From the IMG/VR virus record IMGVR_UViG_3300003973_000001, positions 1 through 64,000 of that record: a stretch of DNA of 64,000 nt; one strand, given 5' to 3'. Below are positions 5,282-52,584 of this stretch, in pieces. The stretch's first letter is position 1. Each line of letters begins with the position of its first letter. Source of the DNA: a virus (lineage: Duplodnaviria > Heunggongvirae > Uroviricota > Caudoviricetes). The translations under genes and the position numbers were made by a program. Below the pieces are notes generated by a model, which worked only from the letters and a program-made list of their open reading frames with translations, ran no database searches and had not been told where the DNA came from.

Positions 5282-5567
5282 GTTCGTCCAAGATAATCAA
5301 ACCAAAGTCAGACCAGTCTTAGCAATAAGCTTAGAAATCGATGGGGATGACGATGTTGTCGTCCTCCCTGTCACTTCTCAGAATCCAAGAAATGACTACG
5401 ATGTAGAAGTTTCGGATTACAAAGGGACTGGATTGTTAAAACAACCATCGTACATAAGAACATCAAAGCCATTAACAATCGAAAAGAGAGAGCTTAAAAG
5501 AAAAATAGGCGAAATCAAAGATGTTGACCTAGCGAACGCATTGGAAAAGTTTCGTTCATTATTTTAA
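5223..5567 (+). CDS. MazF/PemK-like (CcdB/MazF fold) toxin endoribonuclease
   Basis: GEVWIANVKF...TKVRPVLAIS...VVVLPVTSQ...YIRTSKPLTIEKREL matches the MazF/PemK pattern (GDI-WxxxF...KxRPxLVxS...xxPxTS). Start is ATG 5223 or ATG 5235. Confidence 0.6.
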   Translation: MTKSMGKTVNQGEVWIANVKFVQDNQTKVRPVLAISLEIDGDDDVVVLPVTSQNPRNDYDVEVSDYKGTGLLKQPSYIRTSKPLTIEKRELKRKIGEIKDVDLANALEKFRSLF

Positions 5568-12367: not shown

Positions 12368-12754
12368 TTATTCAATCTCTAATATTACGTTTATTGGCAT
12401 TTGCAATTCTTCATCCCATAACTGCTCTATAGAACTTACAATTCTATTTTCAACGTCATCATAGATATGGAACATATCTTGATTAATAGATGAGATTACG
12501 CCTTGAACAATCTTCTGGGCATTGTTATTTCCGATATCCTGCACGATTACAATGTCGTCAATATCAACAAATGAAACTAGATTATGAGGTATAATACATT
12601 CAGATTCACTGCCAAATACTTCAACTACACATCGTAAACCTTTTACATCTCTTACAATGCCAGTGTATGACTTTGTAAAGTTTACATTTTTAAGTCTTTC
12701 ACCTGCTAAAATCCGTACAGTTTCTAGCAGGCTATTTTGGATATCCTTCATCAC
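12368..12754 (-). CDS. hypothetical protein (paralog of the next gene)
   Basis: ORF. Shares the C..VE..G.E..C..P..L......D.V.VQD..NN..K..VQ pattern with 12751..13026. Confidence 0.5.
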   Translation of the reverse strand: MMKDIQNSLLETVRILAGERLKNVNFTKSYTGIVRDVKGLRCVVEVFGSESECIIPHNLVSFVDIDDIVIVQDIGNNNAQKIVQGVISSINQDMFHIYDDVENRIVSSIEQLWDEELQMPINVILEIE

Positions 12755-13040: not shown

Positions 13041-13733
13041 TTAGTCAATAATTTCAATCCACATTAGACCTTCTTGCTGAACAGCAGGAGCAGTTTTACT
13101 TGCAATAAATCTATCAAACAAGAACCAATACGTCACATCAGTAGGCGCTTTACCTGCTGTCGTGTCTTTAGAGCAATAGAATAAGTTCCCTTGATAAGAT
13201 ACTGCATCCCCTACTTTGTAAGTAGCAGTTGCGCTGTATTGCCCACGATAATAGGTATTTAATCCAACGTCACCCTTATCACCTTTTGTAGAAACCTTTT
13301 GCCAGTAGCCAGTGTTTGTTGGAACTGTACCTGCAGGCGTATTCTTTGTACATAAGTACAGGTCGCCATTATACGTAACCATATTTTGAAACTTGTATCC
13401 TACAGATGCACTGTATACGCCTTTATGAACAAAGTCATTTACGTATGTAGCCCACTCTGCTTGCTTCGTATTAATGTATCCATCTACCTTATCTTTAAAG
13501 AACGTTTCTACATTGACGATACAATCAGCCATCTTATTAAACGTTTCTGGAGTAATAATATAGCTATTTAATTGAGATGTTAAACCATTCAATTCATTTT
13601 GCTCCGTCTGATTTAACGTAGGCTTAAGCTTTAATTCTTGATATCGCTTAGCTTGATTAAACTTACTAGGAGGCATGTCAAAAAGTTCGACAAATGAATC
13701 TACTTTACTTGGAAATTGACTTCTATTAGCCAA
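13041..13733 (-). CDS. tail-associated protein
   Basis: TTG start after AAAGGA RBS. Preceded by motif, hairpin, motif. Confidence 0.5.
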   Translation of the reverse strand: MANRSQFPSKVDSFVELFDMPPSKFNQAKRYQELKLKPTLNQTEQNELNGLTSQLNSYIITPETFNKMADCIVNVETFFKDKVDGYINTKQAEWATYVNDFVHKGVYSASVGYKFQNMVTYNGDLYLCTKNTPAGTVPTNTGYWQKVSTKGDKGDVGLNTYYRGQYSATATYKVGDAVSYQGNLFYCSKDTTAGKAPTDVTYWFLFDRFIASKTAPAVQQEGLMWIEIID

Positions 13734-13748
13734 AATACTTCATCCTTT

Positions 13749-35988: not shown

Positions 35989-36073
35989 CTTATAGCATTC
36001 CTCCTTTTCGATATTTTACGTGGACGAAAGTCCCATATATTCATATATTCATTATAGCAGTCTGACAAAGTTA

Positions 36074-36092
36074 CTGCAATACTTTTGTTTAA
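36074..36092 (-). promoter_or_regulatory. 19-bp motif class A (upstream of the giant fibre); TTGCAG-17-TATAAT
   Basis: ctgcaatacttttgtttaa. On the gene strand TTGCAG is followed by 17 nt then TATAAT. Confidence 0.6.
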
Positions 36093-36123
36093 TAAAATTC
36101 AGATTTTATTAGGTCAATATGAT

Positions 36124-36160
36124 ACAAAAAAAATTGGGAAGACACATTATTATGTCTTCC
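36124..36160 (-). terminator. rho-independent terminator after the major-tail-protein extension
   Basis: GGGAAGACA-taataatg-TGTCTTCCC then A-ATTTTTTTT on the minus strand. Confidence 0.6.
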
Positions 36161-36335
36161 CAAAATCCTACTTATCTTCAGTAATAATTGATTCTTTTTC
36201 GGATGCGGTTTTTACACCACCAGAATTCTCTTCCCCACTCGTATCAGAACCAGTTTCTGGCTCTGAAGGAGTAGTTTCCTCCTCTTCGATTGGTGGAGGA
36301 GTCGGAATTACAGGAGGAGAGACTGGCTCATCCTC

Positions 36336-43631: not shown

Positions 43632-45163
43632 TATTCGGCATCTTTAATACGAACAGTGGTATCAGTTGGCTTTTCTGATTGCGGTCTTCCCTTCTCTTTT
43701 TCTTGAGCTTCGTTTCCGCTCATTGTATGAGAAGTCTGTTTCGCAATCATAAGGTCATCAATCGTTAGAACTTGCTGTTCAAAGACTAATATCATAGCAA
43801 ATTCTATTGGAGTCATTCCGCAATAAGCTAAGTACTCCATACGAGAACCACCAAATGAAAGTTGGTCTTTAGCAGTCTTAATTGCTTCATCTCTATCGAA
43901 GTGTGAAATATTTAAGAATTTCGTTTTCCAAGTGACTGACTTTTTGCTTGCCTTCTTCAGTTCATAATTGTAATAATTAGTAAACATAGGAAGCAGGAAA
44001 CTGTACAGCCATTGGCAATCTACTTGAATAGAACGTTCTAAAGCTTGAGAGCTAGAGTTGTCGTCCGCGAATAACTGAGGTGATACACCTGCACCCTTAT
44101 AAAGTTGCTCAGATGTTTTATCTAGCAACGAGAATTTACCGTCTTTACCAGTTCCGTTAAGCGTAATACCTCTCGTATCGAAAGGATTCGTAATCGCTAC
44201 AGAACCTTCTGGTAAACTCTTTTTAAGAGCATTATGATATTCGTGAACTACTGGAAGCTCCATTAAAGGTCTTCCCTTGTCATCGGTCTCAATTTTAGAA
44301 TGAACAATTTTGGAATTATCCAGTTTATCTGTATCTTCCATTTTGTCTTTTGCATTCTCAATCTTGATTGCATCGATAAGAGCGTTGGCAATCGGTGGCA
44401 AAGCCATACCTCCGTTAGCTAAAACATCGGTATCGATTGTGAATGCTACACCTTTATCCGATACTTGATACCATCGTCCTTCAATCAACTTTTCAGTTTG
44501 ACCGTTTTTGTAAGACGTATAAGCATTCTGTAGCTCTTTTGGAAATACTTCAAAAGTAGCATCAGAAATCTTTGTTACGTCAAATTGGAATCGATATACG
44601 CCATCTTCCACGTATCCAACGCGACAGAAAGCAGGAGCAATATCTTGATAAACAACACCCTTTGAATCTTCCAATTTATACTGATATGTAACACCAGTAG
44701 TAAACAGTTTTTCTGTAAAGATTGGAAGATTGTACTTAGGGTTTAATCTATCTAAATAGACTGCTGTATTAACAAATGATTCCTGCGTTTTCTTCATATC
44801 GCTAGATTTAATCTTCATAGGATTCGTAAGAATTGGGTAAAGCACATGGTCAAATGTTAGCAAGCTACTCATATACTTTATGATTCTCTTGTACATACCA
44901 TTGACCTGTTTCATAGAAGACGATAGCCCTGCAACTTGCACAGCACTCTTAGCAGGGTCTTGAAGCATTGTCTTGAGACGAGATTCGCTCATACCTCTTG
45001 CTCCGTTATTACCACCACTAGAGCCTTTAAAGTTTGCTGAGGCTGATGCGAACTTAGAATGTTCTAGCACCGAATTCGGCTTCTCGCTATTATTCTTGCG
45101 TCTTCGCTTGTAATAATTGTTAGTATTACGATTATTCAACGCTTCTTCACCTACCATAAGCAA
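43631..45163 (-). CDS. portal protein
   Basis: 510 aa, immediately downstream of TerL. Confidence 0.65.
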   Translation of the reverse strand: MLMVGEEALNNRNTNNYYKRRRKNNSEKPNSVLEHSKFASASANFKGSSGGNNGARGMSESRLKTMLQDPAKSAVQVAGLSSSMKQVNGMYKRIIKYMSSLLTFDHVLYPILTNPMKIKSSDMKKTQESFVNTAVYLDRLNPKYNLPIFTEKLFTTGVTYQYKLEDSKGVVYQDIAPAFCRVGYVEDGVYRFQFDVTKISDATFEVFPKELQNAYTSYKNGQTEKLIEGRWYQVSDKGVAFTIDTDVLANGGMALPPIANALIDAIKIENAKDKMEDTDKLDNSKIVHSKIETDDKGRPLMELPVVHEYHNALKKSLPEGSVAITNPFDTRGITLNGTGKDGKFSLLDKTSEQLYKGAGVSPQLFADDNSSSQALERSIQVDCQWLYSFLLPMFTNYYNYELKKASKKSVTWKTKFLNISHFDRDEAIKTAKDQLSFGGSRMEYLAYCGMTPIEFAMILVFEQQVLTIDDLMIAKQTSHTMSGNEAQEKEKGRPQSEKPTDTTVRIKDAE

Positions 45164-46902
45164 TATTGAAGTAAGTCATCGTTTCCACCAGTTTTTAAGA
45201 TGTCATTCTCTAATAGAGTCGCTACATAGTTTCCATATCCAATAGAGGAGTATCTATCCTTTGTAGTTGTTCCGACTTCTTTAATCTTGATGTAACCATT
45301 TCTAACTTCGTATACAAGGTTAACTAGCTCGTTCGTTAAAGCAGTTGTCTGCATAAACGGTCTTAGCATGTGAACCTGTTCTTCCGTTGTTTTCTTCATA
45401 TAACCCTTGCGCTCGATTAAATCTTCTTTCGCTTCAATATCATTGATAAGTAAGCGAATTTTGCGCTTCTCAAAAGCAATTCGTAATCCTGTAGCAACCT
45501 TATGGTTTAACTCAGAATTACCTTTAATGGAATAGATGATTGGAATGGCGTTAGCGTCAATTTTACGCTCATCCATTGCCTCATCATTAATTACTGTCCA
45601 AGCAGGATATTCTTCATCTCTATCTTTGTCATAGAGTATTTTTGTACAAGAATCATAGATTGCTATACCATTACCATTTGTATCCATGCCAACAAAGTCA
45701 GCTTCGAAATCATAGAATAGTTGTTTTAATCTAATTGCTTGAAGTTCAGCATGTTGTCCTGCCATACTCTCTAAGTAAACTACGTCGCGTCTAAATTCTT
45801 CGCCTTGTGGCAATAATCTCATTAACGTGAAAGCAGTTGTATCATTTCTAACCGATTTACTGCTACCCATTAAGGCAATATCCATACTTACAATACGGAT
45901 TTCTCCTGCCTGTTTAGGCATGTTCGTAAGTTTCTTCCTACTACCCTTGTTTTCTACAAACTCTCGGTCTGTAGGAGGATAGAAAGGTTTAGGAAGTGTT
46001 CTACACTTCTGAATATCATCTAATTTGTAGTAAGCGTTCTCATTTTCACCAACGAAAAGCGCCTCATATTCCATGTCCCAGCTCATCTGGTCAAAGTCTT
46101 CTTCTGTTCTTTGCTGTTCTACACGCTTCTTAGATAAGAGCTTGTGATACACAGATAACTGCCAAGGCAGTACAGCAACGAAGTAATCTTTGCCTGCCAT
46201 CATTTGTTTTATATACGAATTGAAAGATTCATATATCCAATGATTTTTATACCACGCTGAAGAGATATAAATTTCCTTATTCTCTTCTTCTAAGTGTTGG
46301 TATTTTGGATTTGCTAAGTACGGTGGAGTACGGTTTACGTTCAAGAATGGACGTAAAATAGTATCGATTGTTTCTTTTGATATCAACCTAAACTCGTCAA
46401 CTATTAATATATTAGCGCGGTATCCGCGAGCTGAGTCGCCTGACGTTACGGCTGTAATTTTAGAGCCATTAAAGAAGACTACGTAACATTCGTTAGCACT
46501 AGTCTTGAATTCTTTTATTTCTCGCTCAACATTTTTAGAGTTGTTTTTAAGAGCGAATATCTTCTCTGTGATTATTAATCTCGCTTGTCCTTTTGTACCA
46601 GATGCAAGCACGATATTAGAGCCTGGGAAAAGTATAGCCCTAATTACACAGTAAACTGCGATTAGGTAAGACTTCCCTTGTCCGCGCGCCGCCAAATACA
46701 TAAAGAAACCATAGTGGTTCATCGCCCACAATAGAATCTTCTGATATAGAAACAAGTGTATTCCGAGATAATCCTTTGCAAATCGTTGTGGATTTGCTCT
46801 ATAGAACGATGTCCATAATTTAAAGCCATCTCTCAGCTTATCTGTTTTTGTTTTAGTTTCTTGGGAATTTTTAGTAACCTTAGACATATCAGTCTTCACC
46901 AT
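45151..46902 (-). CDS. terL: terminase large subunit
   Basis: Walker A (AARGQGKS), ATPase then nuclease domain order. 583 aa. Confidence 0.85.
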   Translation of the reverse strand: MVKTDMSKVTKNSQETKTKTDKLRDGFKLWTSFYRANPQRFAKDYLGIHLFLYQKILLWAMNHYGFFMYLAARGQGKSYLIAVYCVIRAILFPGSNIVLASGTKGQARLIITEKIFALKNNSKNVEREIKEFKTSANECYVVFFNGSKITAVTSGDSARGYRANILIVDEFRLISKETIDTILRPFLNVNRTPPYLANPKYQHLEEENKEIYISSAWYKNHWIYESFNSYIKQMMAGKDYFVAVLPWQLSVYHKLLSKKRVEQQRTEEDFDQMSWDMEYEALFVGENENAYYKLDDIQKCRTLPKPFYPPTDREFVENKGSRKKLTNMPKQAGEIRIVSMDIALMGSSKSVRNDTTAFTLMRLLPQGEEFRRDVVYLESMAGQHAELQAIRLKQLFYDFEADFVGMDTNGNGIAIYDSCTKILYDKDRDEEYPAWTVINDEAMDERKIDANAIPIIYSIKGNSELNHKVATGLRIAFEKRKIRLLINDIEAKEDLIERKGYMKKTTEEQVHMLRPFMQTTALTNELVNLVYEVRNGYIKIKEVGTTTKDRYSSIGYGNYVATLLENDILKTGGNDDLLQYCLW

Positions 46903-48429: not shown

Positions 48430-48660
48430 CAATAAGACATTTCTACAGTGCGTTAGGCTGTGAAGCACGAGACTTCACAAGATAAACACAAAGGAGTGTG
48501 CGAGAATAACGAGTGCAACTAAAGATAAATAACTTAAATACACAAAGGATTGGTGTACTACACACCCTAACGCACTGCAGAATGCTTTGGTCTAATACGA
48601 TTTAAAAGACCCAGATAATAAGACCTCTCTTGGAGGAATTCAAAGCACCGCATAGCAGTG
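48430..48660. other. structured non-coding region between the late operon and the tRNA island
   Basis: 12-bp long-range inverted repeat CAGTGCGTTAGG (48446) / CCTAACGCACTG (48567) enclosing local hairpins (TGTGAAG-cacgaga-CTTCACA, GGTGT-actac-ACACC) and repeated ACACAAAGGA words. Confidence 0.35.
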
Positions 48661-48682
48661 CAACATAATATTTAGTTGTCAA

Positions 48683-48753
48683 CAGGGGTTGTAGGAATCG
48701 AACCCACACTGGAGGTTTTGGAGACCTCTGTTCTACCGTTAAACTAAACCCCT
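48683..48753 (-). tRNA. tRNA-Trp (anticodon CCA)
   Basis: Hand-folded cloverleaf. Acceptor AGGGGTT/AACCCCT, anticodon loop CTCCAAA, T-loop GGTTCGATTCC. CCA not encoded. Confidence 0.75.
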
Positions 48754-48757
48754 AAGA

Positions 48758-48834
48758 TGGCATCCCATACAGGATTCGAACCTGCGAATGCTCGATAGAA
48801 AGTCGAGTGTGTTAGCCAATTTCACCAATGGGAC
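48758..48834 (-). tRNA. tRNA-Glu (anticodon TTC), CCA encoded
   Basis: Cloverleaf with anticodon stem CTCGA/TCGAG and loop CTTTCTA. Position 37 is U, which is unusual. Confidence 0.6.
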
Positions 48835-48965
48835 ATAAAGCACAAGGGTTGTTTACGTTTTTTGTTTTGGACACCCAAGAAACATAAAACTTTCTATAAT
48901 TAGTGACGAATCAAGGCATTGCCTTTGCGTTTTTTTGAATAGAAAGAAACGTATTAAGTCCATAA

Positions 48966-49039
48966 TGCCGACTGTAGGAATCGAACCCACGACCTGTTGC
49001 TTACAAGGCAACCGCTCTAACCTGCTGAGCTAAGTCGGC
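48966..49039 (-). tRNA. tRNA-Thr (anticodon TGT)
   Basis: Acceptor GCCGACT/AGTCGGC. Anticodon stem-loop GTTGC CTTGTAA GCAAC. Confidence 0.75.
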
Positions 49040-49094
49040 AAAACTGAGGACTAGCCTCAGAAATCATAGTAAGGAGGGCTTACAAATGAATAAA

Positions 49095-49166
49095 AGGGAC
49101 ATGAGGGAATCGAACCCTCGTCATCTGGTTGGAAGCCAGAGATAATAGCCTCTATACGAATGCCCC
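49095..49166 (-). tRNA. tRNA-Gly (anticodon TCC)
   Basis: Anticodon stem-loop TCTGG CTTCCAA CCAGA. T-loop GGTTCGATTCC. Confidence 0.7.
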
Positions 49167-49167
49167 A

Positions 49168-49244
49168 TGGAGGAGAGAGTGAGATTCAAACTCACGAATA
49201 ATAGGGTTGCAACCTATCGCGTTAAGCCACTTCGCCATCTCTCC
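49168..49244 (-). tRNA. tRNA-Cys (anticodon GCA), CCA encoded
   Basis: Acceptor GGAGAGA/TCTCTCC. Anticodon stem-loop ATAGG TTGCAAC CCTAT. Confidence 0.7.
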
Positions 49245-49247
49245 ATA

Positions 49248-49334
49248 TGGTGGGAAAGGTAGGATTCGAACCTACGAAACTTGTAAGGTAACAGATTTAC
49301 AGTCTGCCTGCTTTAACCCCTTGCATACTCGCCC
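49248..49334 (-). tRNA. tRNA-Tyr (anticodon GTA), long variable arm, CCA encoded
   Basis: Anticodon loop CTGTAAA. 87 nt, class II. Confidence 0.7.
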
Positions 49335-49342
49335 AAATAAAA

Positions 49343-49372
49343 TAGCGCCCATATTTCAGAGCGCTGTTATGT
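49343..49372 (-). terminator. hairpin terminator after 49374..49637, immediately upstream of tRNA-Tyr
   Basis: AGCGC-(12 nt)-GCGCT followed by ATTTTATTT. Confidence 0.45.
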
Positions 49373-49373
49373 T

Positions 49374-49637
49374 TTAATCTAATTCTACAAATTTATTAAT
49401 CTTGGCTTTAAATCGAGCATTTTGCTCTTTGCCTGCTTTTGCACTATTTACAGAAGATTGAAGTTTATCAATTTCGGCTTGCTTCTTGGCGATTTCGCCT
49501 TGGGCATCCTTAATAATAACGTCAAATTCAGCATCTGATTTATCTACTGATGCAATCGCATCTGCAAAAACCGTTTGTGCATTTTTAAAAGTATTTTCTG
49601 CTTTCGCAATCTTTTGTTCATGATTCATCTTTAGCAT
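49374..49637 (-). CDS. hypothetical coiled-coil protein embedded in the tRNA island
   Basis: ORF with a downstream hairpin terminator (49343-49372). Confidence 0.5.
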   Translation of the reverse strand: MLKMNHEQKIAKAENTFKNAQTVFADAIASVDKSDAEFDVIIKDAQGEIAKKQAEIDKLQSSVNSAKAGKEQNARFKAKINKFVELD

Positions 49638-49660
49638 AACTCTCTCATTCTCCCTTGTTT

Positions 49661-49735
49661 GCTAATTTAATGGTACAGGTGGCAGGATTTGAACCTGCGT
49701 GACCTCCGCCCCAAACGGAGTGACTGACCTCTAGC
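49661..49735 (-). tRNA. tRNA-Pro (anticodon TGG), CCA encoded
   Basis: Anticodon stem-loop CTCCG TTTGGGG CGGAG. Acceptor has two G-U pairs. Confidence 0.6.
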
Positions 49736-49851
49736 CTACACCCATATAATAAAAGCTACCGTTATTTTAAGCTTCTATAGTCCTCTTAATAAGAGTCCAG
49801 AAGTGTGCTTTCATGAGAACCGTAGCGAAACTCAGTGTGTGTGAAAAATAT

Positions 49852-49938
49852 AAGTAAGGAAAGGAGAATACAGGATTCGAACCTGTGGGAGCATTCAGTC
49901 TCCACTTCTTTAGCAAAGAAGCACAATAAGCCACTCTG
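49852..49938 (-). tRNA. tRNA-Ser (anticodon GCT), class II
   Basis: Acceptor GGAGAAT/ATTCTCC. Anticodon stem-loop CTTCT TTGCTAA AGAAG. Long variable arm. Confidence 0.7.
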
Positions 49939-50017
49939 ACAATTCTCCACGTTGGTACTCGTTTTATTCGGAACACGAGTATACATTCCACTCATCGATG
50001 ACAATGCTAGGTGAGCA

Positions 50018-50091
50018 ATCGCATAAGCTTCGGAGGAAGGGGTCGAACCTCCACGTTCTTGGGTCAAAGCCAAGTGACTTTACCAATTTGT
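50018..50091 (-). tRNA. tRNA-Gln (anticodon TTG)
   Basis: Acceptor TTCGGAG/CTCCGAA. Anticodon stem-loop CTTGG CTTTGAC CCAAG. Confidence 0.65.
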
Positions 50092-50097
50092 CTACTC

Positions 50098-50187
50098 CGA
50101 AATAATGTGGCGGAGAGTGAGGGACTTGAACCCCCATCGGCTTTCACACCTACGCTAGTTTTCAAGACTAGTCTCTTACCAATTAGA
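50098..50187 (-). tRNA. tRNA-Ser (anticodon TGA), class II, CCA encoded
   Basis: Acceptor GGAGAGT/ACTCTCC. Anticodon stem-loop CTAGT CTTGAAA ACTAG. Confidence 0.7.
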
Positions 50188-50192
50188 GTAAC

Positions 50193-50267
50193 TCTCCACA
50201 TTTGGCGAGGATAACGAGATTCGAACTCGTGCTACATGGTAGACAGCCATGTGTGTTGACCACTACA
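50193..50267 (-). tRNA. tRNA-Asp (anticodon GTC), CCA encoded
   Basis: Acceptor GGGGATA/TATCCTC. Anticodon stem-loop CATGG CTGTCTA CCATG (U37 again). Confidence 0.65.
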
Positions 50268-50374
50268 CTATATCCCCAAAGCTGTTCTAGCCACCACAGC
50301 TAGAACAGGAGGTAGGAGGTTTTAAAATGAACCAAGATTTAGGTGTTTATAGATTGGATTTAACCAATGCCTAA

Positions 50375-50455
50375 ACATATTAAGAGCCGAGTGCAGGAAT
50401 CGAACCTGCGACCAAAAGTCTGTTACTGAGCGCTCCTTATCGCTTTACCACTAAG
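50375..50455 (-). pseudogene. tRNA-like element (81 nt) lacking a canonical anticodon arm
   Basis: Perfect acceptor GCCGAGT/ACTCGGC, D-arm GCTT/AAGC and T-arm GCAGG-TTCGATT-CCTGC. The 31 nt between them contain a GAGCGCTC palindrome and no 5-7-5 anticodon hairpin. Confidence 0.4.
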
Positions 50456-50521
50456 CTAACTCGGCATAATGTGGAGCAGGAAGTGAGGGACGACCTCATA
50501 GACAATCGTTAATTGCAACCT

Positions 50522-50618
50522 GCATATGGAGTTCTGTAGGTGGGAGTCGAACCCACATGACAAATACTTGACCCTTTCTTTCCCATTTGGGATTACTCGA
50601 ACCTTTCAATATCGCTGA
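50522..50618 (-). ncRNA. oversized tRNA-like element (about 97-100 nt)
   Basis: Acceptor-type terminal pairing GTTCTGT(G)/(C)ACAGAAC and perfect T-arm GTGGG-TTCGACT-CCCAC (the selC-type T-loop). The internal region is too long for a standard tRNA and I could not fold it by eye. Confidence 0.35.
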
Positions 50619-50624
50619 CCTTCA

Positions 50625-50701
50625 CAGAACATAATGGCGTGTCTAGATGGACTTGAACCAACGACCCTCCGCTTAACAGGCGGATGCTCTAACCAACTGA
50701 G
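50625..50701 (-). tRNA. tRNA-Asn (anticodon GTT), CCA encoded
   Basis: D-arm GCTCAGTTGGTTAGAGC. Anticodon stem-loop TCCGC CTGTTAA GCGGA. Confidence 0.7.
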
Positions 50702-50921
50702 CTACAGACACAAATTTGAGGATAGTACCGTTCCTATCCTCAATAACATATATAGTAGGAGGAAAATACATGTCGAGAAAAACAAGCAGGTTGTAACTGG
50801 ATTTGCACCAGTCATCATCCATCTAGGACAACCATGAAAAGAAGCCACGCCAATCAGCATGACTCCTTGGGTATGTTTTGGGGAGTAGCTATCGCATTTC
50901 CCCAGTTATGTTTGTTTTAAA

Positions 50922-51191
50922 TTAGAATTTACGTAATGATTTTGCTAATTTAGCAGATGCTTTACGGTGAGCAGGAACAGTGATTGCTTCGCCAGTTTGT
51001 GGATTACGACCAGTGCCTTCAGCAACTTCTTTTGATACGAATGAAGCTAAACCTTTAAGTTCTACATCTTCTCCGCGAGTTACAGCGCCAACAATTACTT
51101 CTTTAAAAGCATCGAAATGTGCCTTCGCGTCTTTCTTAGTTCCACCTGTAATTTCTGCCATTGCGTTTACTACTTCTGTTGTTTTCATCAT
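50922..51191 (-). CDS. HU/IHF-family histone-like DNA-binding protein (SPO1 TF1-like)
   Basis: MMKTTEVVNAMAEITGGTKKDAKAHFDAFKEVI...GRNPQTGEAITVPA matches the HU fold signature (GRNPQTGE). Start set at ATG 51189-91 after an AAAGGGAGAT RBS. Confidence 0.8.
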   Translation of the reverse strand: MMKTTEVVNAMAEITGGTKKDAKAHFDAFKEVIVGAVTRGEDVELKGLASFVSKEVAEGTGRNPQTGEAITVPAHRKASAKLAKSLRKF

Positions 51192-51275
51192 AATTTGATA
51201 TCTCCCTTTCTCTCTCATTCCATTATGAGATTTAATAAAATATTTGTTTTATTAGTTTTGTAATAATTTTGTTTG

Positions 51276-51346
51276 AGCCGAAGGTGGGAATCGAACCCAC
51301 TCTACCACCTTGCGATGATAAGCTTTCCATATACTTCTCTTTCGGC
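51276..51346 (-). pseudogene. tRNA-like element (71 nt) with a degenerate anticodon arm
   Basis: Acceptor GCCGAAA/CTTCGGC and T-arm GTGGG-TTCGATT-CCCAC are intact. No convincing D or anticodon stems. Confidence 0.35.
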
Positions 51347-51445
51347 ATAATAAGAAGCCCAAGCTAGGAGACTTGGGCAAATTTGAGATACAACGATTTA
51401 GGAGGCAATCATTAATTGCTAAGTTTTTAAATCCATTAACCACTT

Positions 51446-51464
51446 CTGCAAATCTTTTGCTTAG
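51446..51464 (-). promoter_or_regulatory. 19-bp motif class B variant (downstream of the sigma gene, upstream of the tRNA/HU unit)
   Basis: ctgcaaatcttttgcttag. Confidence 0.5.
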
Positions 51465-51525
51465 TGGCTTACACTATATATAGCAGTAGCCTCCAAAATA
51501 GTTCGTATCATTTCTCATATTTTTT

Positions 51526-52584
51526 TTATTTATTTTTGATGGCGATTTTATAAAGCTCTTTAACGTAGAATTCTGCTGACTTTTTAGCGATTCGTGTAAT
51601 CGTCTCTGAAACAGTATTCTTCTTGATTCCCAGTAATTCCTCTAGTTCTTCTTGTGCATATCCCTGTCTGAATAAGTCAACAATACTTTGCTCACGAACA
51701 GTCAGAACCATTCTATCTAGCATTCTATTGTAGTCATATATAATGATTCCTAATCCATCTTCATCCATCATATCTTCTCTATTAAGCATTCTGAGAAGCT
51801 CTTTGTTATTTACAATATCAGCGAAATCAATAACATCTAACTTGTTTGCCACACCCTCATCCTTAAGTAGATTCTTAAATTCGATAGGACGCTTGATAGC
51901 TTTCTTGATAGCAATCTGATTATCTTTCGCCTCGCGAATCCAACGAGTTACATAGCCTTTGACGTTTTTGCGAATCTTTAGGAGCTTCGCACGAGCCTCT
52001 TCTTCCATTATAATAGGAAGAGATGCGTCAATTCGATTTTCAATCATCTTCACAAACGAGTCGTCTCCTGCCTTTTCGACTAAGTCTTGCAGTCTGCCAA
52101 TCTCTACTATTTCTCTAATATCCTTAGAAAGTATACTCATACCCTTGACTAGCTTCTGATTTTTATCTTCATTAGAATAGAACATATCGAATACTTCTAC
52201 TTCTGAATTGCCATCTCCACTTTCAAATGCTGAAGCTACAACGTTCTCAGACTCTTTATATTGCTTGAACTCTCTCTCACTCTTCCAAAATCGGTACTCT
52301 ACCTTTCTGTTAGTGTCGATATCTTTTGCATTAAGAAGATATGTACCTAGCATCTCTAACGTTCGGCATACAGCATCCTGCTCAGCCATCCAACCTTGTT
52401 GCGTTGGGCTTACATCGTAATATTCACCAAAGTATGCAGAGAAGAATTCATGTACATTCCCTTCTCCATCACCAATCACTTCATTTATTACCTCTAATCT
52501 ATCATGAAACTTCTCAACTGAATAATCCTGCTGTTGGAAATCCACCAATTTTTTACCTGCAATTGAACTACTGAAGTACTTCAC
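51526..52584 (-). CDS. phage-encoded sigma-70-family sigma factor
   Basis: C-terminal region-4 HTH (QSIVDLFRQGYAQEELEELLGIKKNTVSETITRIAKK). 352 aa. Confidence 0.6.
   Translation of the reverse strand: MKYFSSSIAGKKLVDFQQQDYSVEKFHDRLEVINEVIGDGEGNVHEFFSAYFGEYYDVSPTQQGWMAEQDAVCRTLEMLGTYLLNAKDIDTNRKVEYRFWKSEREFKQYKESENVVASAFESGDGNSEVEVFDMFYSNEDKNQKLVKGMSILSKDIREIVEIGRLQDLVEKAGDDSFVKMIENRIDASLPIIMEEEARAKLLKIRKNVKGYVTRWIREAKDNQIAIKKAIKRPIEFKNLLKDEGVANKLDVIDFADIVNNKELLRMLNREDMMDEDGLGIIIYDYNRMLDRMVLTVREQSIVDLFRQGYAQEELEELLGIKKNTVSETITRIAKKSAEFYVKELYKIAIKNK

What the first reader, a model, noticed from the sequence alone, without database searches (positions are those of the whole stretch)
48673..51346. 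tRNA island organised as tRNA-hairpin modules with embedded protein genes
At least 12 canonical minus-strand tRNAs cover Trp, Glu, Thr, Gly, Cys, Tyr, Pro, Ser-GCU, Gln, Ser-UGA, Asp and Asn; seven have encoded CCA. They are separated by perfect 6-10-bp hairpins: CTGAGG-actag-CCTCAG at 49046, CTGTTCTAGC-caccaca-GCTAGAACAG at 50271, GAGGATAG-taccgtt-CTATCCTC at 50709, and GCCCAAG-ctaggaga-CTTGGGC at 51360. A coiled-coil ORF and an HU-like gene are interspersed. Two tRNAs (Glu, Asp) have U at position 37 of the anticodon loop by my fold. The hairpins look like processing or termination punctuation for a long precursor driven from the motif at 51446.
Basis: partly seen in the sequence, partly recalled or inferred. 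Interest (0 to 1): 0.5.

Follow-up and report, generated by a model that had tools for sequence, protein, structure and literature searches.

The report
Phage tRNA island with tRNA-like RNAs
This is a genuine tRNA gene island of an SPbeta-like Bacillus phage; the island itself is an ordinary kind of feature, but it also carries conserved hairpins, a repeated CCUCCU motif and several tRNA-shaped RNAs that cannot decode codons and whose function is unknown.

Summary
ARAGORN and the Rfam tRNA model both minus-strand tRNAs at 48682-50711.

The four hairpins exist. Perfect hairpins are enriched over shuffles. Three of them end exactly 4 nt before a tRNA 5' end, and relatives keep them through compensatory changes.

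The setting is an SPbeta-like temperate Bacillus cereus-group phage. The island lies between a phage sigma-factor gene plus an HU gene and the terminase/structural operon.

My reading is that the tRNAs are the punctuation (host RNase P and RNase Z). The hairpins are the 3' stem-loops or terminators of whatever non-tRNA unit precedes each tRNA block.

- **X:** the 13th "tRNA" (50384-50465) has a conserved 17-nt loop in place of an anticodon loop.
- **B:** a 104-nt tRNA-like RNA (50527-50630) with no D arm and no anticodon arm, an encoded CCA and a swappable central arm. Twelve copies (ten distinct sequences) show strong covariation.
- **A and C:** a degenerate tRNA-like element ahead of HU (A) and a minihelix (C).
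- **CCUCCU motifs:** these sit 5' of the hairpins, and CCUCCUACCUCCU is invariant in eight genomes.
- **CCA rule:** encoded CCA tracks tRNA adjacency.

The island is ordinary. B and X look like undescribed tRNA-like families.

The parts
51443..51489 (-). Conserved non-coding block (CTACTGCTATATATAGTGTAAG...AAGCAAAAG.TTTGCA). It is the best promoter or leader candidate for the island.
   Evidence: Conserved in all six related genomes (alignment A5). Occurs once in the window. Not called by the sigma-70 consensus scan.
51357..51378 (-). Hairpin GCCCAAGT-ctccta-GCTTGGGC followed by UUCUUAUUAU. Terminator-like. It is preceded by CCUCCUA at 51399-51405 and lies 10 nt before element A.
   Evidence: Terminator scan. 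A hairpin of different sequence sits at the same place in all six genomes.
51273..51346 (-). Element A, a degenerate tRNA-like RNA. It has an acceptor stem (GCCGAA.G/CUUCGGC) and a T arm (GUGGGUUCGAUUCCCAC), with an 8-bp stem capped by a GCAA tetraloop in place of the anticodon arm. No CCA.
   Evidence: Fold. T-arm plus acceptor scan in six genomes with compensated acceptor pairs. Homologues in L009 and L010 reach the Rfam tRNA gathering score (41-46 bits), but the window copy does not.
50922..51191 (-). HU-like DNA-binding protein gene (YonN-like).
   Evidence: PF00216 E=2.4e-22. phrog_379 E=1.1e-23.
50843..50864 (-). Hairpin AGUCAUGC-ugauug-GCGUGGCU followed by UCUUUU, the probable HU terminator.
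   Evidence: Read from the sequence. An equivalent hairpin plus U-tract follows HU in L011, read from its L004 copy. Not called by the scan.
50789..50833 (-). Element C, a 45-nt minihelix. It has an acceptor-like stem GGUUGU/ACAACC and a T-arm-like hairpin ACUGG-ugcaaau-CCAGU.
   Evidence: Read from the sequences. The stems change with compensation in L008, L011 (GGUUGC/GCAACC, UGUCAG/CUGACA; read from its L004 copy) and L009 (GGUCGC/GCGACC). Coordinates. No formal covariation count was made.
50716..50743 (-). 10-bp hairpin UUGAGGAUAG-gaacggua-CUAUCCUCAA, ending 4 nt before tRNA-Asn. CCUCCU lies at 50757-50762.
   Evidence: An 8-10-bp hairpin of differing sequence lies 4-7 nt before tRNA-Asn in all six genomes, mostly without a U-tract.
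50635..50711 (-). tRNA-Asn (GUU), CCA encoded.
50527..50630 (-). Element B, a tRNA-like RNA. It has an 8-bp acceptor stem (last pair G-U), a 9-nt linker AAGGUCAGC, a long central arm closed by GA..UC, a T arm, then U-CCA. It has no D arm and no anticodon loop, and starts 4 nt after tRNA-Asn-CCA.
   Evidence: Not called by ARAGORN or Rfam. Twelve copies (ten distinct sequences) found. Covariation: 10 of 19 pairs changed on both sides, 94.7% paired, 0 of 500 shuffles. The covariance model scores members at 84-100 bits and everything else at 26 bits or less.
50384..50465 (-). Element X, a tRNA cloverleaf whose 'anticodon' loop is a conserved 17-nt sequence GAGCGCUCAGUAACAGA. No CCA. ARAGORN mislabels it Ala-AGC.
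   Evidence: Homologues in L011/L014, Bacillus phage KLEB30-3S and three IMG/VR contigs. 11 of 17 pairs changed on both sides, 95.3% paired.
50278..50383 (-). Spacer module before tRNA-Asp. It holds a 5' hairpin (50352-50369), an A/U-rich stretch, CCUCCUACCUCCU (50307-50319), and a 10-12-bp hairpin (50282-50308) ending 4 nt before tRNA-Asp.
   Evidence: Fold z-score -3.86, 0 of 200 shuffles. The motif is invariant in eight genomes while both hairpins change sequence.
50203..50277 (-). tRNA-Asp (GUC), with U37 and encoded CCA.
50108..50197 (-). tRNA-Ser (UGA), CCA encoded.
50027..50101 (-). tRNA-Gln (UUG), no CCA.
49862..49948 (-). tRNA-Ser (GCU), no CCA. A 7-bp, 12-nt-loop hairpin (49956-49981) lies 7 nt upstream.
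49671..49745 (-). tRNA-Pro (UGG), CCA encoded. A weak A/U-rich hairpin (49749-49778) lies 3 nt upstream.
49374..49637 (-). 87-aa ORF, a probable coiled-coil protein of unknown function.
   Evidence: ORF list. Weak coiled-coil Pfam hits only. No PHROG match. Homologous ORFs occupy the islands of L008, L009, L010, L011 and L014.
49344..49365 (-). Terminator-like hairpin AGCGCUC-ugaaauau-GGGCGCU followed by AUUUUAUUU. It ends the 87-aa ORF unit 9 nt before tRNA-Tyr.
49095..49334 (-). Tight block tRNA-Tyr (GUA, CCA), tRNA-Cys (GCA, CCA) and tRNA-Gly (UCC, no CCA), 1-3 nt apart.
49044..49077 (-). CCCUCCUUA motif (49073-49077 core) followed by the 6-bp hairpin CUGAGG-cuagu-CCUCAG (49044-49060) and UUUU, ending 4 nt before tRNA-Thr.
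   Evidence: In L008 the same slot holds CCUCCU and a different 9-bp hairpin.
48965..49040 (-). tRNA-Thr (UGU), no CCA.
48682..48834 (-). tRNA-Glu (UUC, U37, CCA) and tRNA-Trp (CCA anticodon, no encoded CCA), 3 nt apart.
48645..48661 (-). Terminator-like hairpin GCACUGC-uau-GCGGUGC followed by UUUGAAUU, closing the island.
   Evidence: Also present in L008, read from its L002 copy.

Best explanation
**What it is.** The region is the tRNA gene island of an SPbeta-like temperate siphovirus of the Bacillus cereus group. It sits in the co-oriented stretch between a phage sigma-factor gene plus an HU (YonN-like) gene and the terminase/structural late operon. SPbeta itself has a 1.5-kb non-coding leader in this slot.

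**Contents.** It encodes 12 decoding tRNAs, two small proteins and four tRNA-shaped RNAs that cannot decode (A, B, C, X).

**How it works (inferred).** The island is transcribed as multi-gene RNAs, and the tRNAs themselves are the punctuation. Host RNase P cuts at every tRNA or tRNA-like 5' end. tRNAs that are followed within a few nucleotides by another tRNA carry an encoded CCA, and their short trailers are trimmed back by exonucleases. tRNAs followed by a long spacer lack CCA and are cut after the discriminator by RNase Z, which releases the spacer.

**Role of the hairpins (inferred).** Each hairpin is the 3'-terminal stem-loop of the non-tRNA unit that precedes a tRNA block, whether that unit is the sigma mRNA or leader, the HU mRNA, the small-ORF mRNA or a spacer RNA carrying CCUCCU. 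Once RNase P has cut 4-10 nt downstream, the hairpin caps that RNA against 3' exonucleases. Hairpins with a U-tract also act as partial intrinsic terminators.

**Shown versus inferred.**
- Shown: the tRNA calls, the anatomy, conservation and covariation, and the association between CCA and adjacency.
- Inferred: transcription, the cleavages, and any function of A, B, C, X and the CCUCCU motif.
For: **tRNA calls.** Two independent methods agree.

**Phage context.**
- The terminase is 47% identical to SPbeta YonF and 51% to Lysinibacillus phage LC76P1.
- There is a YonG homologue, an HU gene and a sigma-factor family match, phrog_5767 at E=1.4e-36.
- All ORFs of the flanking modules are on the same strand.
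- In SPbeta the syntenic gap after yonN has no tRNAs. Its late operon is reported to start upstream of yonK and an unannotated ncRNA (PMC5467207).

**Hairpins.**
- They are enriched over shuffles, and three end exactly 4 nt before a tRNA.
- In six genomes every junction between a non-tRNA unit and tRNA-Asn, tRNA-Asp or element A carries an 8-13-bp hairpin of different sequence, 4-13 nt upstream.
- Terminator-like sites number 7 against 2.9 +/- 1.8 expected.

**CCA rule.**
- Window: 6 of 8 CCA-bearing elements are followed within 12 nt by the next one, against 0 of 5 CCA-less elements (p=0.02).
- The unrelated Bcp1 island gives 8/0 against 1/8 (p=4e-4).
- Seven islands pooled give p=6e-5.
- This matches the established B. 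subtilis split between RNase Z processing of CCA-less precursors and exonucleolytic trimming of CCA-encoding ones (my own knowledge: Pellegrini et al. 2003; Wen et al. 2005).

**Non-decoding elements.** All keep an acceptor stem and a T arm, which is the minimal RNase P/RNase Z substrate.
Against: - No expression data exist. Promoters, transcript ends and cleavage sites are all inferred.
- The sigma-70 scan finds no more promoter-like sites than chance (10 against 7.7 +/- 3.0) and none that would drive the tRNA blocks.
- If the U-tract hairpins terminate efficiently, the downstream tRNAs would need promoters that I cannot see.
- Two CCA-bearing elements, B and tRNA-Pro, break the adjacency rule. 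The pooled p-value uses related genomes, so it overstates independence.
- A structured leader starting at -5 could hinder rather than help RNase P.
- The hairpin explanation does not account for the invariant CCUCCU motifs.
- It does not account for B and X being better conserved than the real tRNAs either.
Confidence: 0.65

Rival explanations
1. The hairpins are simply efficient Rho-independent terminators. They divide the island into independent transcription units, each tRNA block having its own promoter, and no long precursor exists.
For: - Four minus-strand spacer hairpins fit the terminator consensus.
- In L009, L010, L011 and L014 the hairpin before tRNA-Asp is GC-rich and is followed by UUUUA.
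- Every ORF-to-tRNA junction has a hairpin with a U-rich tail.
Against: - Only 4-10 nt separate hairpin and tRNA, which leaves no room for a promoter after the terminator.
- The scan finds no sigma-70-like sites upstream of the blocks.
- The tRNA-Asn hairpin has no U-tract in four of six genomes (tails CCUCCU, ACUACU, CCUCCUU) yet is conserved.
- The window's tRNA-Asp and tRNA-Thr hairpins have only 3-4 U.
Confidence: 0.15
2. The unit of function is 'CCUCCU motif plus hairpin', a regulatory RNA element. Two forms are possible. In one, spacer sRNAs released by tRNA processing use an anti-Shine-Dalgarno-like seed to pair with ribosome-binding sites. In the other, nut-like sites (a linear box plus a hairpin) recruit an antitermination factor or another protein so that RNA polymerase reads through the island into the late operon.
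For: - CCTCC occurs 9 times on the sense strand of the island against 1.4 +/- 1.2 expected (0 of 1000 shuffles), and five of the six spacer copies lie 5-30 nt 5' of a pre-tRNA hairpin.
- CCUCCUACCUCCU is invariant in eight genomes whose flanking hairpins differ.
- The module before tRNA-Asp has the layout of a Gram-positive sRNA: a 5' hairpin, a single-stranded C-rich seed and a terminator hairpin. Its fold z-score is -3.86.
- No conserved plus-strand ORF follows the complementary GGAGG (read).
- Precedents from my own knowledge: the tRNA-spacer sRNA 3'ETS-leuZ in E. coli, and C-rich seeds in Firmicute sRNAs.
Against: - No target, partner protein or expression data are known.
- An extended complement of the motif is absent from the window.
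- A motif this invariant could equally be a DNA-level protein-binding site.
- This reading is compatible with the main explanation rather than exclusive of it.
Confidence: 0.15
3. The palindromes are DNA-level features of a recombination hot spot, for example homing-endonuclease or recombinase targets, or cruciforms bound by the adjacent HU. They mark the cassette boundaries of a mosaic island and are not RNA signals.
For: - tRNA content varies from 7 to 13 among close relatives.
- Whole segments, such as B's central arm, are swapped between otherwise near-identical genomes.
- Endonuclease-like ORFs occur in relatives' islands.
Against: - Several stems include G-U pairs that would be A-C mismatches on the other strand, for example 51357-51378 and the extended tRNA-Asp hairpin.
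- The U-rich tails are strand-specific.
- The hairpin position is fixed relative to the tRNA 5' end rather than to the points where relatives' content diverges.
Confidence: 0.05

Closest known systems
tRNA gene clusters of large phages, for example Bacillus phage Bcp1 (Herelleviridae) and coliphage T4
   Same: - Co-oriented runs of tRNAs with interspersed small ORFs, lying next to the structural genes. Bcp1 has 18 tRNAs beside the portal gene.
- Individual window tRNAs are 86-94% identical to those of B. cereus Herelleviridae.
- They share the unusual CU-NNN-UA loop (U37) in Glu and Asp.
- Bcp1 follows the same CCA-adjacency rule.
   Different: - The host genome is an SPbeta-like temperate siphovirus, a group whose type members have no tRNAs in this slot.
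- Elements B and X are absent from Bcp1.
T4 small stable RNAs, species 1 (rnaC) and species 2 (rnaD), in the T4 tRNA cluster
   Same: These are non-decoding stable RNAs encoded inside a phage tRNA cluster. rnaC has a canonical T arm (CCGGGUUCGAAUCCCGG), pairing between its 5' and 3' ends, and long internal hairpins, which is the same architecture as B. Their function has been unknown for decades (my own knowledge).
   Different: - There is no sequence relationship. The B model scores rnaC at 18 bits, no better than ordinary tRNAs.
- B is shorter, has an invariant AAGGUCAGC linker and an encoded CCA.
- B's central arm is exchanged as a cassette.
tmRNA tRNA-like domain
   Same: B has an acceptor stem, a short single-stranded D-loop analogue containing GG, a long helix leaving the core, a T arm identical to that of B. 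subtilis tmRNA (recalled from memory, not tested here), and CCA.
   Different: - ARAGORN's tmRNA search and the Rfam tmRNA models do not call B.
- It has no G3-U70.
- It has no pseudoknots and no consistent tag reading frame across the insert variants (read).
- One unpaired C lies between the T stem and the acceptor.
tRNA punctuation of mitochondrial transcripts and plant mitochondrial t-elements
   Same: tRNAs and degenerate tRNA-like structures that keep only the acceptor and T-arm features serve as RNase P/RNase Z cleavage signals defining mRNA ends (PMC1920247, listed). Element A before HU and minihelix C after HU fit that layout.
   Different: This is a bacterial phage setting. Cleavage has not been shown here, and B and X lie between tRNAs where no mRNA end needs defining.
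tRNA-Other, the pseudo-tRNA of Bacillus cereus
   Same: It is a tRNA-shaped RNA in the same host group that is kept out of translation and has regulatory effects (PMC3399842; PMC5389517).
   Different: - It is chromosomal and has a normal-sized CCA anticodon loop.

Membership tests
Phage tRNA gene cluster | Several canonical tRNA genes detected by structure-aware methods, clustered and co-oriented. | tested here: met
   13 calls by ARAGORN and by Rfam RF00005 (43.9-73.5 bits, gathering score 29), all on the minus strand within 2 kb.
Phage tRNA gene cluster | Located in a phage genome. | tested here: met
   Terminase, portal-sized, tape-measure-sized, HU and sigma-factor genes flank it. The nearest relatives are IMG/VR viral contigs of 120-137 kb.
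Intrinsic (Rho-independent) terminator | G+C-rich stem-loop immediately followed by a U-tract. | tested here: inconclusive
   - Met for 51357-51378, 49344-49365, 48645-48661 and marginally 50716-50743.
- 50282-50308 (tail CUUU) and 49044-49060 (tail UUUU, short stem) do not reach the scan's criteria.
- The tRNA-Asn hairpin lacks a U-tract in four of six relatives.
Intrinsic (Rho-independent) terminator | Causes transcript release. | not testable with these tools
   Needs term-seq or in vitro transcription.
Canonical decoding tRNA (element X, 50384-50465) | Cloverleaf with acceptor, D, anticodon and T stems. | tested here: met
   Rfam tRNA 52.4 bits. The acceptor, anticodon-position and T stems covary across 5 sequences.
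Canonical decoding tRNA (element X, 50384-50465) | 7-nt anticodon loop with U33 and a purine at 37. | tested here: not met
   The loop is 17-18 nt, GAGCGC(G)nnRUAAmA(A)GA, conserved in all five homologues. ARAGORN's 'Ala-AGC' fold pairs only 3 of 5 stem positions.
Canonical decoding tRNA (element B, 50527-50630) | D arm and anticodon arm present; recognised by tRNA models. | tested here: not met
   No call by ARAGORN or by Rfam even at E<=10. Nine nucleotides replace the D arm, and a 39-64-nt variable hairpin replaces the anticodon arm.
tmRNA (element B) | tRNA-like domain with G3-U70, a resume codon with a tag ORF, and pseudoknots; detected by ARAGORN or Rfam tmRNA models. | tested here: not met
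   No tmRNA call. The only tmRNA-model hit in the region is a 17-nt T-arm match in element A. The acceptor pairs are G-C, U-A, U-A at positions 1-3. There is no shared reading frame among the insert variants.
RNase P / RNase Z processing signal (tRNA punctuation, t-element) | Coaxial acceptor stem plus T arm, the minimal substrate. | tested here: met
   Present in A, B, C and X with compensatory changes (C from reading).
RNase P / RNase Z processing signal (tRNA punctuation, t-element) | Cleavage at the predicted 5' and 3' ends in vivo or in vitro. | not testable with these tools
   Needs end-mapping or enzyme assays.

The most novel reading that the evidence does not exclude
The island is more than a codon-supply cassette. 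It encodes at least two undescribed families of non-decoding tRNA-shaped RNAs, together with CCUCCU-bearing spacer RNAs.
- **B:** no D arm, no anticodon, CCA-ended, with a central arm exchanged as a cassette between phages.
- **X:** a cloverleaf with a conserved 17-18-nt loop that holds an AGGAG and a GCGC palindrome.
- **Spacer RNAs:** carry CCUCCU and would be released by RNase P/RNase Z.

These RNAs would act in trans during infection. Possible roles are decoys or inhibitors for tRNA-targeting or ribosome-targeting host defences, or regulators of translation initiation. The U37 Glu and Asp tRNAs would be nuclease-evading variants.
Probability: 0.3. Interest if true: 0.8.

Novelty: new variant of a known kind. 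Interest (0 to 1): 0.5.

Why it matters
**What is not new.** Phage tRNA islands are common. This one mainly extends them to SPbeta-like temperate Bacillus phages, and it places the island in what is the late-operon leader of SPbeta.

**What could matter.**
1. **A processing grammar.** Three regularities can be read from sequence and checked with one small-RNA-seq experiment. CCA is encoded only when another tRNA follows directly. CCA-less tRNAs precede long spacers. Every non-tRNA unit ends in a hairpin 4-10 nt before the next tRNA.
2. **Two tRNA-shaped RNA families (B and X).** Both have strong covariation support and no Rfam family. Both are better conserved than the neighbouring real tRNAs, and B has a central arm that is swapped between close relatives. 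That pattern is expected of molecules in a host-phage conflict, and it is relevant to recent work on phage tRNAs and tRNA-targeting defence systems.
3. **An invariant tandem anti-Shine-Dalgarno-like motif** of unknown role.

A related element is carried by an available strain, Bacillus gaemokensis KCTC 13318, so these ideas can be tested directly.

Tried and rejected
- **B as tmRNA or mini-tmRNA.** Rejected. ARAGORN and Rfam make no call, there is no G3-U70, and the insert variants share no tag frame.
- **B or X as a known Rfam family.** Nothing was found at E<=10 apart from the tRNA model matching X.
- **B's variable arm as a guide sequence.** blastn-short of four insert types and the X loop against about 170 kb of window and relatives gave only 10-14-nt chance matches.
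- **CCTCC motifs as ribosome-binding sites of plus-strand mini-ORFs.** The ORFs behind the complementary GGAGG are 15, 4 and 1 codons in the window, L008 and L011, so they are not conserved (read).
- **The 51470-51484 motif as a repeated phage promoter.** It has a single exact copy in the window, and 3-mismatch hits are at chance level (8 against 6.4).
- **Sigma-70 promoters inside the island.** At chance level, with none placed to drive the tRNA blocks.
- **A YonO-type RNA polymerase nearby, as in SPbeta.** tblastn found none in the window or the loci.
- **tRNAs or B-like elements in the syntenic gap of SPbeta or Lysinibacillus phage LC76P1.** None.
- **Close relatives in the INPHARED phage collection.** Megablast gave only tRNA-sized matches. 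A distant search with B hit only T arms.
- **Pattern scan for B.** Three of its 13 hits (L022, L025, L028) were G+C-rich chance matches with no structure and were discarded.

Full report

Yes. ARAGORN finds 13 tRNA genes in the 64-kb window. All lie on the minus strand between 48682 and 50711 (structures). The Rfam tRNA covariance model independently calls the same 13 at 43.9-73.5 bits against a gathering score of 29. Seven canonical tRNAs have an encoded CCA: Glu, Cys, Tyr, Pro, Ser-UGA, Asp and Asn. Glu and Asp have U at position 37, with loops CUUUCUA and CUGUCUA.

The four hairpins exist at 49044-49060, 50282-50308, 50716-50743 and 51357-51378.

The hairpins are more than chance. The island's 1386 nt of spacer contains 7 perfect hairpins of at least 6 bp, against 2.27 +/- 1.47 in dinucleotide-preserving shuffles (3 of 500 shuffles reach 7). 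It contains 5 of at least 7 bp, against 0.64 (2 of 500). The hairpins before tRNA-Asn, tRNA-Asp and tRNA-Thr each end exactly 4 nt before the tRNA 5' end.

The HU-like gene is confirmed (PF00216, E=2.4e-22; phrog_379). The 87-aa ORF is conserved in relatives but has only weak coiled-coil matches.

**2. What genome is this?**

The large terminase (45151-46902, minus strand) is 47% identical to SPbeta YonF and 51% to its counterpart in Lysinibacillus phage LC76P1. The gene just downstream of the island is a YonG homologue. The gene just upstream (51526-52584) belongs to a phage sigma-factor family (phrog_5767, E=1.4e-36).

All genes from that sigma gene through the structural module are on the minus strand. 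At the DNA level only tRNA-sized pieces match known phages, namely B. cereus-group Herelleviridae at 86-94%.

Five distinct related genomes were recovered:
- L008, an IMG/VR contig with 97% protein identity.
- L010, which is identical to L012, a 120-kb scaffold of Bacillus gaemokensis KCTC 13318.
- L011.
- L014, from a metagenome.
- L009, the most distant.

In all of them the order is sigma gene, HU, tRNA island, then late operon. The tRNA complement varies from 7 to 13.

In SPbeta the same slot, after yonN (HU), is a 1.5-kb non-coding gap with no tRNAs. [quoted passage not shown] So the island occupies the position that is the late-operon leader in SPbeta. No YonO homologue is present in the sequence available here.

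**3. What the hairpins are**

They are not a uniform separator between tRNAs. tRNAs that abut each other are 1-6 nt apart with no hairpin. Hairpins appear where a non-tRNA unit precedes a tRNA or tRNA-like element:
- After the sigma gene or leader: 51357-51378, 10 nt before element A.
- After the HU-to-Asn spacer: 50716-50743.
- After the spacer before tRNA-Asp: 50282-50308.
- After the 87-aa ORF: 49344-49365, 9 nt before tRNA-Tyr.
- After the Gly-to-Thr spacer: 49044-49060.
- At the end of the island: 48645-48661.

Across the six genomes, element A, tRNA-Asn and tRNA-Asp are always preceded at 4-13 nt by an 8-13-bp hairpin whose sequence differs between genomes. Before tRNA-Asn, for example, the stems are UUGAGGAUAG, UGCGGAUAG, UGCAGAUAG, UGCAGGGAG and UGAAGAUG. 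The structure is therefore under selection.

Several stems contain G-U pairs and strand-specific U-rich tails, which argues for an RNA-level role. Some hairpins meet the intrinsic-terminator consensus: 7 terminator-like sites against 2.9 +/- 1.8 expected. The tRNA-Asn hairpin lacks a U-tract in four of six genomes, so termination cannot be the only role.

**4. A processing grammar**

Encoded CCA correlates with adjacency. In the window, 6 of 8 CCA-bearing elements are followed by the next tRNA within 12 nt. All 5 scored CCA-less elements are followed by spacers of 54-130 nt (Fisher p=0.02). The unrelated Bcp1 island shows the same pattern (8/0 against 1/8, p=4e-4). Seven islands pooled give p=6e-5, although the related genomes among them are not independent.

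This fits what is established for B. subtilis. CCA-less precursors are cut after the discriminator by RNase Z. CCA-encoding precursors are trimmed by exonucleases (my own knowledge, not tested here).

Together with the hairpin positions, this gives the model in the Best explanation section. RNase P and RNase Z at the tRNAs do the cutting. Each released non-tRNA RNA then ends in a hairpin plus a 4-10-nt tail. This part is inference.

**5. tRNA-shaped RNAs that cannot decode**

*Element X (50384-50465).* ARAGORN labels it Ala-AGC, but its fold pairs only 3 of 5 anticodon-stem positions. Comparison with L011/L014, with Bacillus phage KLEB30-3S (where it lies inside an annotated 'hypothetical protein') and with three IMG/VR contigs shows a 5-bp stem that covaries: AUAAG/CUUUU, AUUAG/CUAUU, CAAG/CUUG and GUCAG/CUGAC. 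That stem encloses a conserved 17-18-nt loop, GAGCGC(G)nnRUAAmA(A)GA. Over the acceptor, anticodon-position and T stems, 11 of 17 pairs change on both sides and 95.3% of cells are paired. Shifted registers give 28-49%.

*Element B (50527-50630).* It starts 4 nt after tRNA-Asn-CCA and is invisible to ARAGORN and Rfam. Its parts, in order:
- An 8-bp acceptor stem whose last pair is an invariant G-U.
- The linker AAGGUCAGC.
- A long central arm closed by GA..UC.
- A canonical T arm.
- One unpaired C.
- The 3' strand of the acceptor stem.
- U-CCA.

Exact-pattern scans of IMG/VR found it in twelve loci (ten distinct sequences). It always lies in a tRNA island and usually right after tRNA-Asn. The acceptor stems are completely different between copies but fully compensated. 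Three further pattern hits were chance matches.

On a core alignment, 10 of 19 pairs change on both sides and 94.7% of cells are paired. No shuffle out of 500 reaches these values, and shifted registers give 31-62%. One caveat applies: the linker and part of the T arm were fixed by the search pattern, so their invariance is partly ascertainment. A covariance model built from the family scores members at 84-100 bits and everything else, tRNAs included, at 26 bits or less. There is one copy per genome and none in SPbeta, LC76P1 or Bcp1.

The distal central arm exists in at least seven unrelated versions. It differs between otherwise near-identical genomes (window against L008, L011 against L014), yet it is shared between distant ones (window, L010, L011). 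This is cassette-like exchange.

*Conservation of B and X.* Between the window and L011, B is 96.2% identical and X is 90.2%. The canonical tRNAs are 66-84% identical.

*Element A (51273-51346).* It lies between the first hairpin and HU. It keeps the acceptor stem and T arm but has an 8-bp stem with a GCAA tetraloop where the anticodon arm should be. Its homologues in L009 and L010 still reach the Rfam tRNA threshold, and the acceptor pairs covary. A is therefore a decaying tRNA that retains the minimal RNase P/RNase Z substrate.

*Element C (50789-50833).* This 45-nt minihelix follows the HU terminator and shows compensated changes in relatives. That is based on reading the sequences, with no formal count.

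**6. The CCUCCU motif**

CCTCC occurs 9 times on the sense strand of the island, against 1.4 +/- 1.2 expected (0 of 1000 shuffles). Five of the six spacer copies lie 5-30 nt 5' of a pre-tRNA hairpin.

The tandem form CCUCCUACCUCCU, immediately 5' of the tRNA-Asp hairpin, is invariant in eight genomes, including distant ones whose flanking hairpins are unrelated in sequence. The complementary GGAGG is not followed by a conserved ORF.

The motif resembles the anti-Shine-Dalgarno end of 16S rRNA and the C-rich seeds of Firmicute sRNAs (my own knowledge). The spacer before tRNA-Asp has an sRNA-like layout and folds far better than shuffles (z=-3.86). I could not identify a target, so its role is open.

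**7. U37**

The CU-NNN-UA loop of Glu and Asp is shared by the window, L008 and three lytic Herelleviridae of B. cereus (Bcp1, Zuko, PBC6). The tRNA-Asp of L009-L014 has the usual CUGUCAC loop. U37 is therefore a recurrent trait of B. cereus-group phage tRNAs, probably spread by gene exchange (91-92% identity). It is compatible with the published idea that phage tRNAs carry anticodon-loop changes to evade tRNA-targeting defences (PMC10264068). That paper does not mention this particular case.

**8. Comparison with what is known, and verdict**

The island is a member of a well-known class, the phage tRNA clusters.

The closest precedent for B is T4's species 1 RNA (rnaC). It is also a stable RNA of unknown function inside a tRNA cluster, with a T arm, paired ends and long internal hairpins. 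There is no sequence relationship. B resembles a tmRNA tRNA-like domain in layout but fails every testable tmRNA criterion. A and C resemble the t-elements of organelle tRNA punctuation. B. cereus tRNA-Other is a precedent for non-translational pseudo-tRNAs in this host group.

It is the tRNAs that punctuate, and the hairpins cap or terminate the units in between.

Noticed in passing
window 48446-48577 (-): A conserved structured RNA of about 130 nt lies between the island's last terminator and the first late ORF. It is closed by a long-range helix of 16 + 8 bp (CAGUGCGUUAGG.GUGUG ... CACAG.CCUAACGCACUG). Compensatory changes occur in L011/L014 (GUACUA/UAGUAC). It may correspond to the 'unannotated non-coding RNA' upstream of yonK in SPbeta.
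   Followed up: partly
window 51526-52584 (-): The 352-aa ORF directly upstream of the island belongs to a phage sigma-factor family (phrog_5767, E=1.4e-36; weak GerE/LuxR helix-turn-helix at the C-terminus). It is conserved in all relatives at 44-97% identity. It replaces the YonO RNA polymerase gene found at this position in SPbeta.
   Followed up: partly
window 51443-51489 (-): This is the most conserved non-coding block of the region (CTACTGCTATATATAGTGTAAG..AAGCAAAAG.TTTGCA). It is present in all six genomes and is followed about 65 nt later by a terminator-like hairpin. It could be the promoter plus leader of a discrete small RNA, or of an attenuated entry into the island.
   Followed up: partly
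window 48758-48834 and 50203-50277 (-); L001, L032, L033: U37/A38 in tRNA-Glu and tRNA-Asp is shared with the lytic B. cereus Herelleviridae Bcp1, Zuko and PBC6, but not with the more distant SPbeta-like relatives. This suggests tRNA gene exchange between unrelated phages of one host group.
   Followed up: yes
L017 (Bacillus phage vB_BceS_KLEB30-3S, MT136606.1 about 36050-36180): The annotated CDS gp57 ('hypothetical protein') overlaps an X-family tRNA-like RNA and the CCA-ended 3' part of another tRNA-like element. ARAGORN calls neither. The CDS annotation is probably wrong.
   Followed up: partly
L016 3767-5307 (SPbeta-type phage, between yonN and yonK): This 1.5-kb stretch has no annotated gene, no tRNA and no B-like element, and it is syntenic with the tRNA island. 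It contains ACCTCCTTACAC at about 4467, which resembles the window's CCCTCCTTACTA.
   Followed up: no
L009 2723-2821, 4947-5015, 5039-5108, about 5475-5540; L008 13468-13551; L014 about 12668-12735 and 13583-13735: Relatives' islands hold many more degenerate tRNA-like elements. These keep the acceptor stem and T arm but have truncated or expanded cores, and one carries an insert of about 100 nt. tRNA decay and remodelling appear to be ongoing in this island type.
   Followed up: partly
L004 6086-6462 (equivalent position in L011): A relative carries an extra 125-aa ORF inside the island, between the small coiled-coil ORF and tRNA-Ser. By eye its sequence looks like a PD-(D/E)XK-type nuclease. 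That would be consistent with mobile-endonuclease traffic in the island.
   Followed up: no
window upstream of starts at 51191, 49637 and 48410 (-): Genes in and after the island are preceded by purine-rich GAGAGAG..GGGA(G) stretches rather than by the canonical AAGGAGG ribosome-binding site.
   Followed up: no
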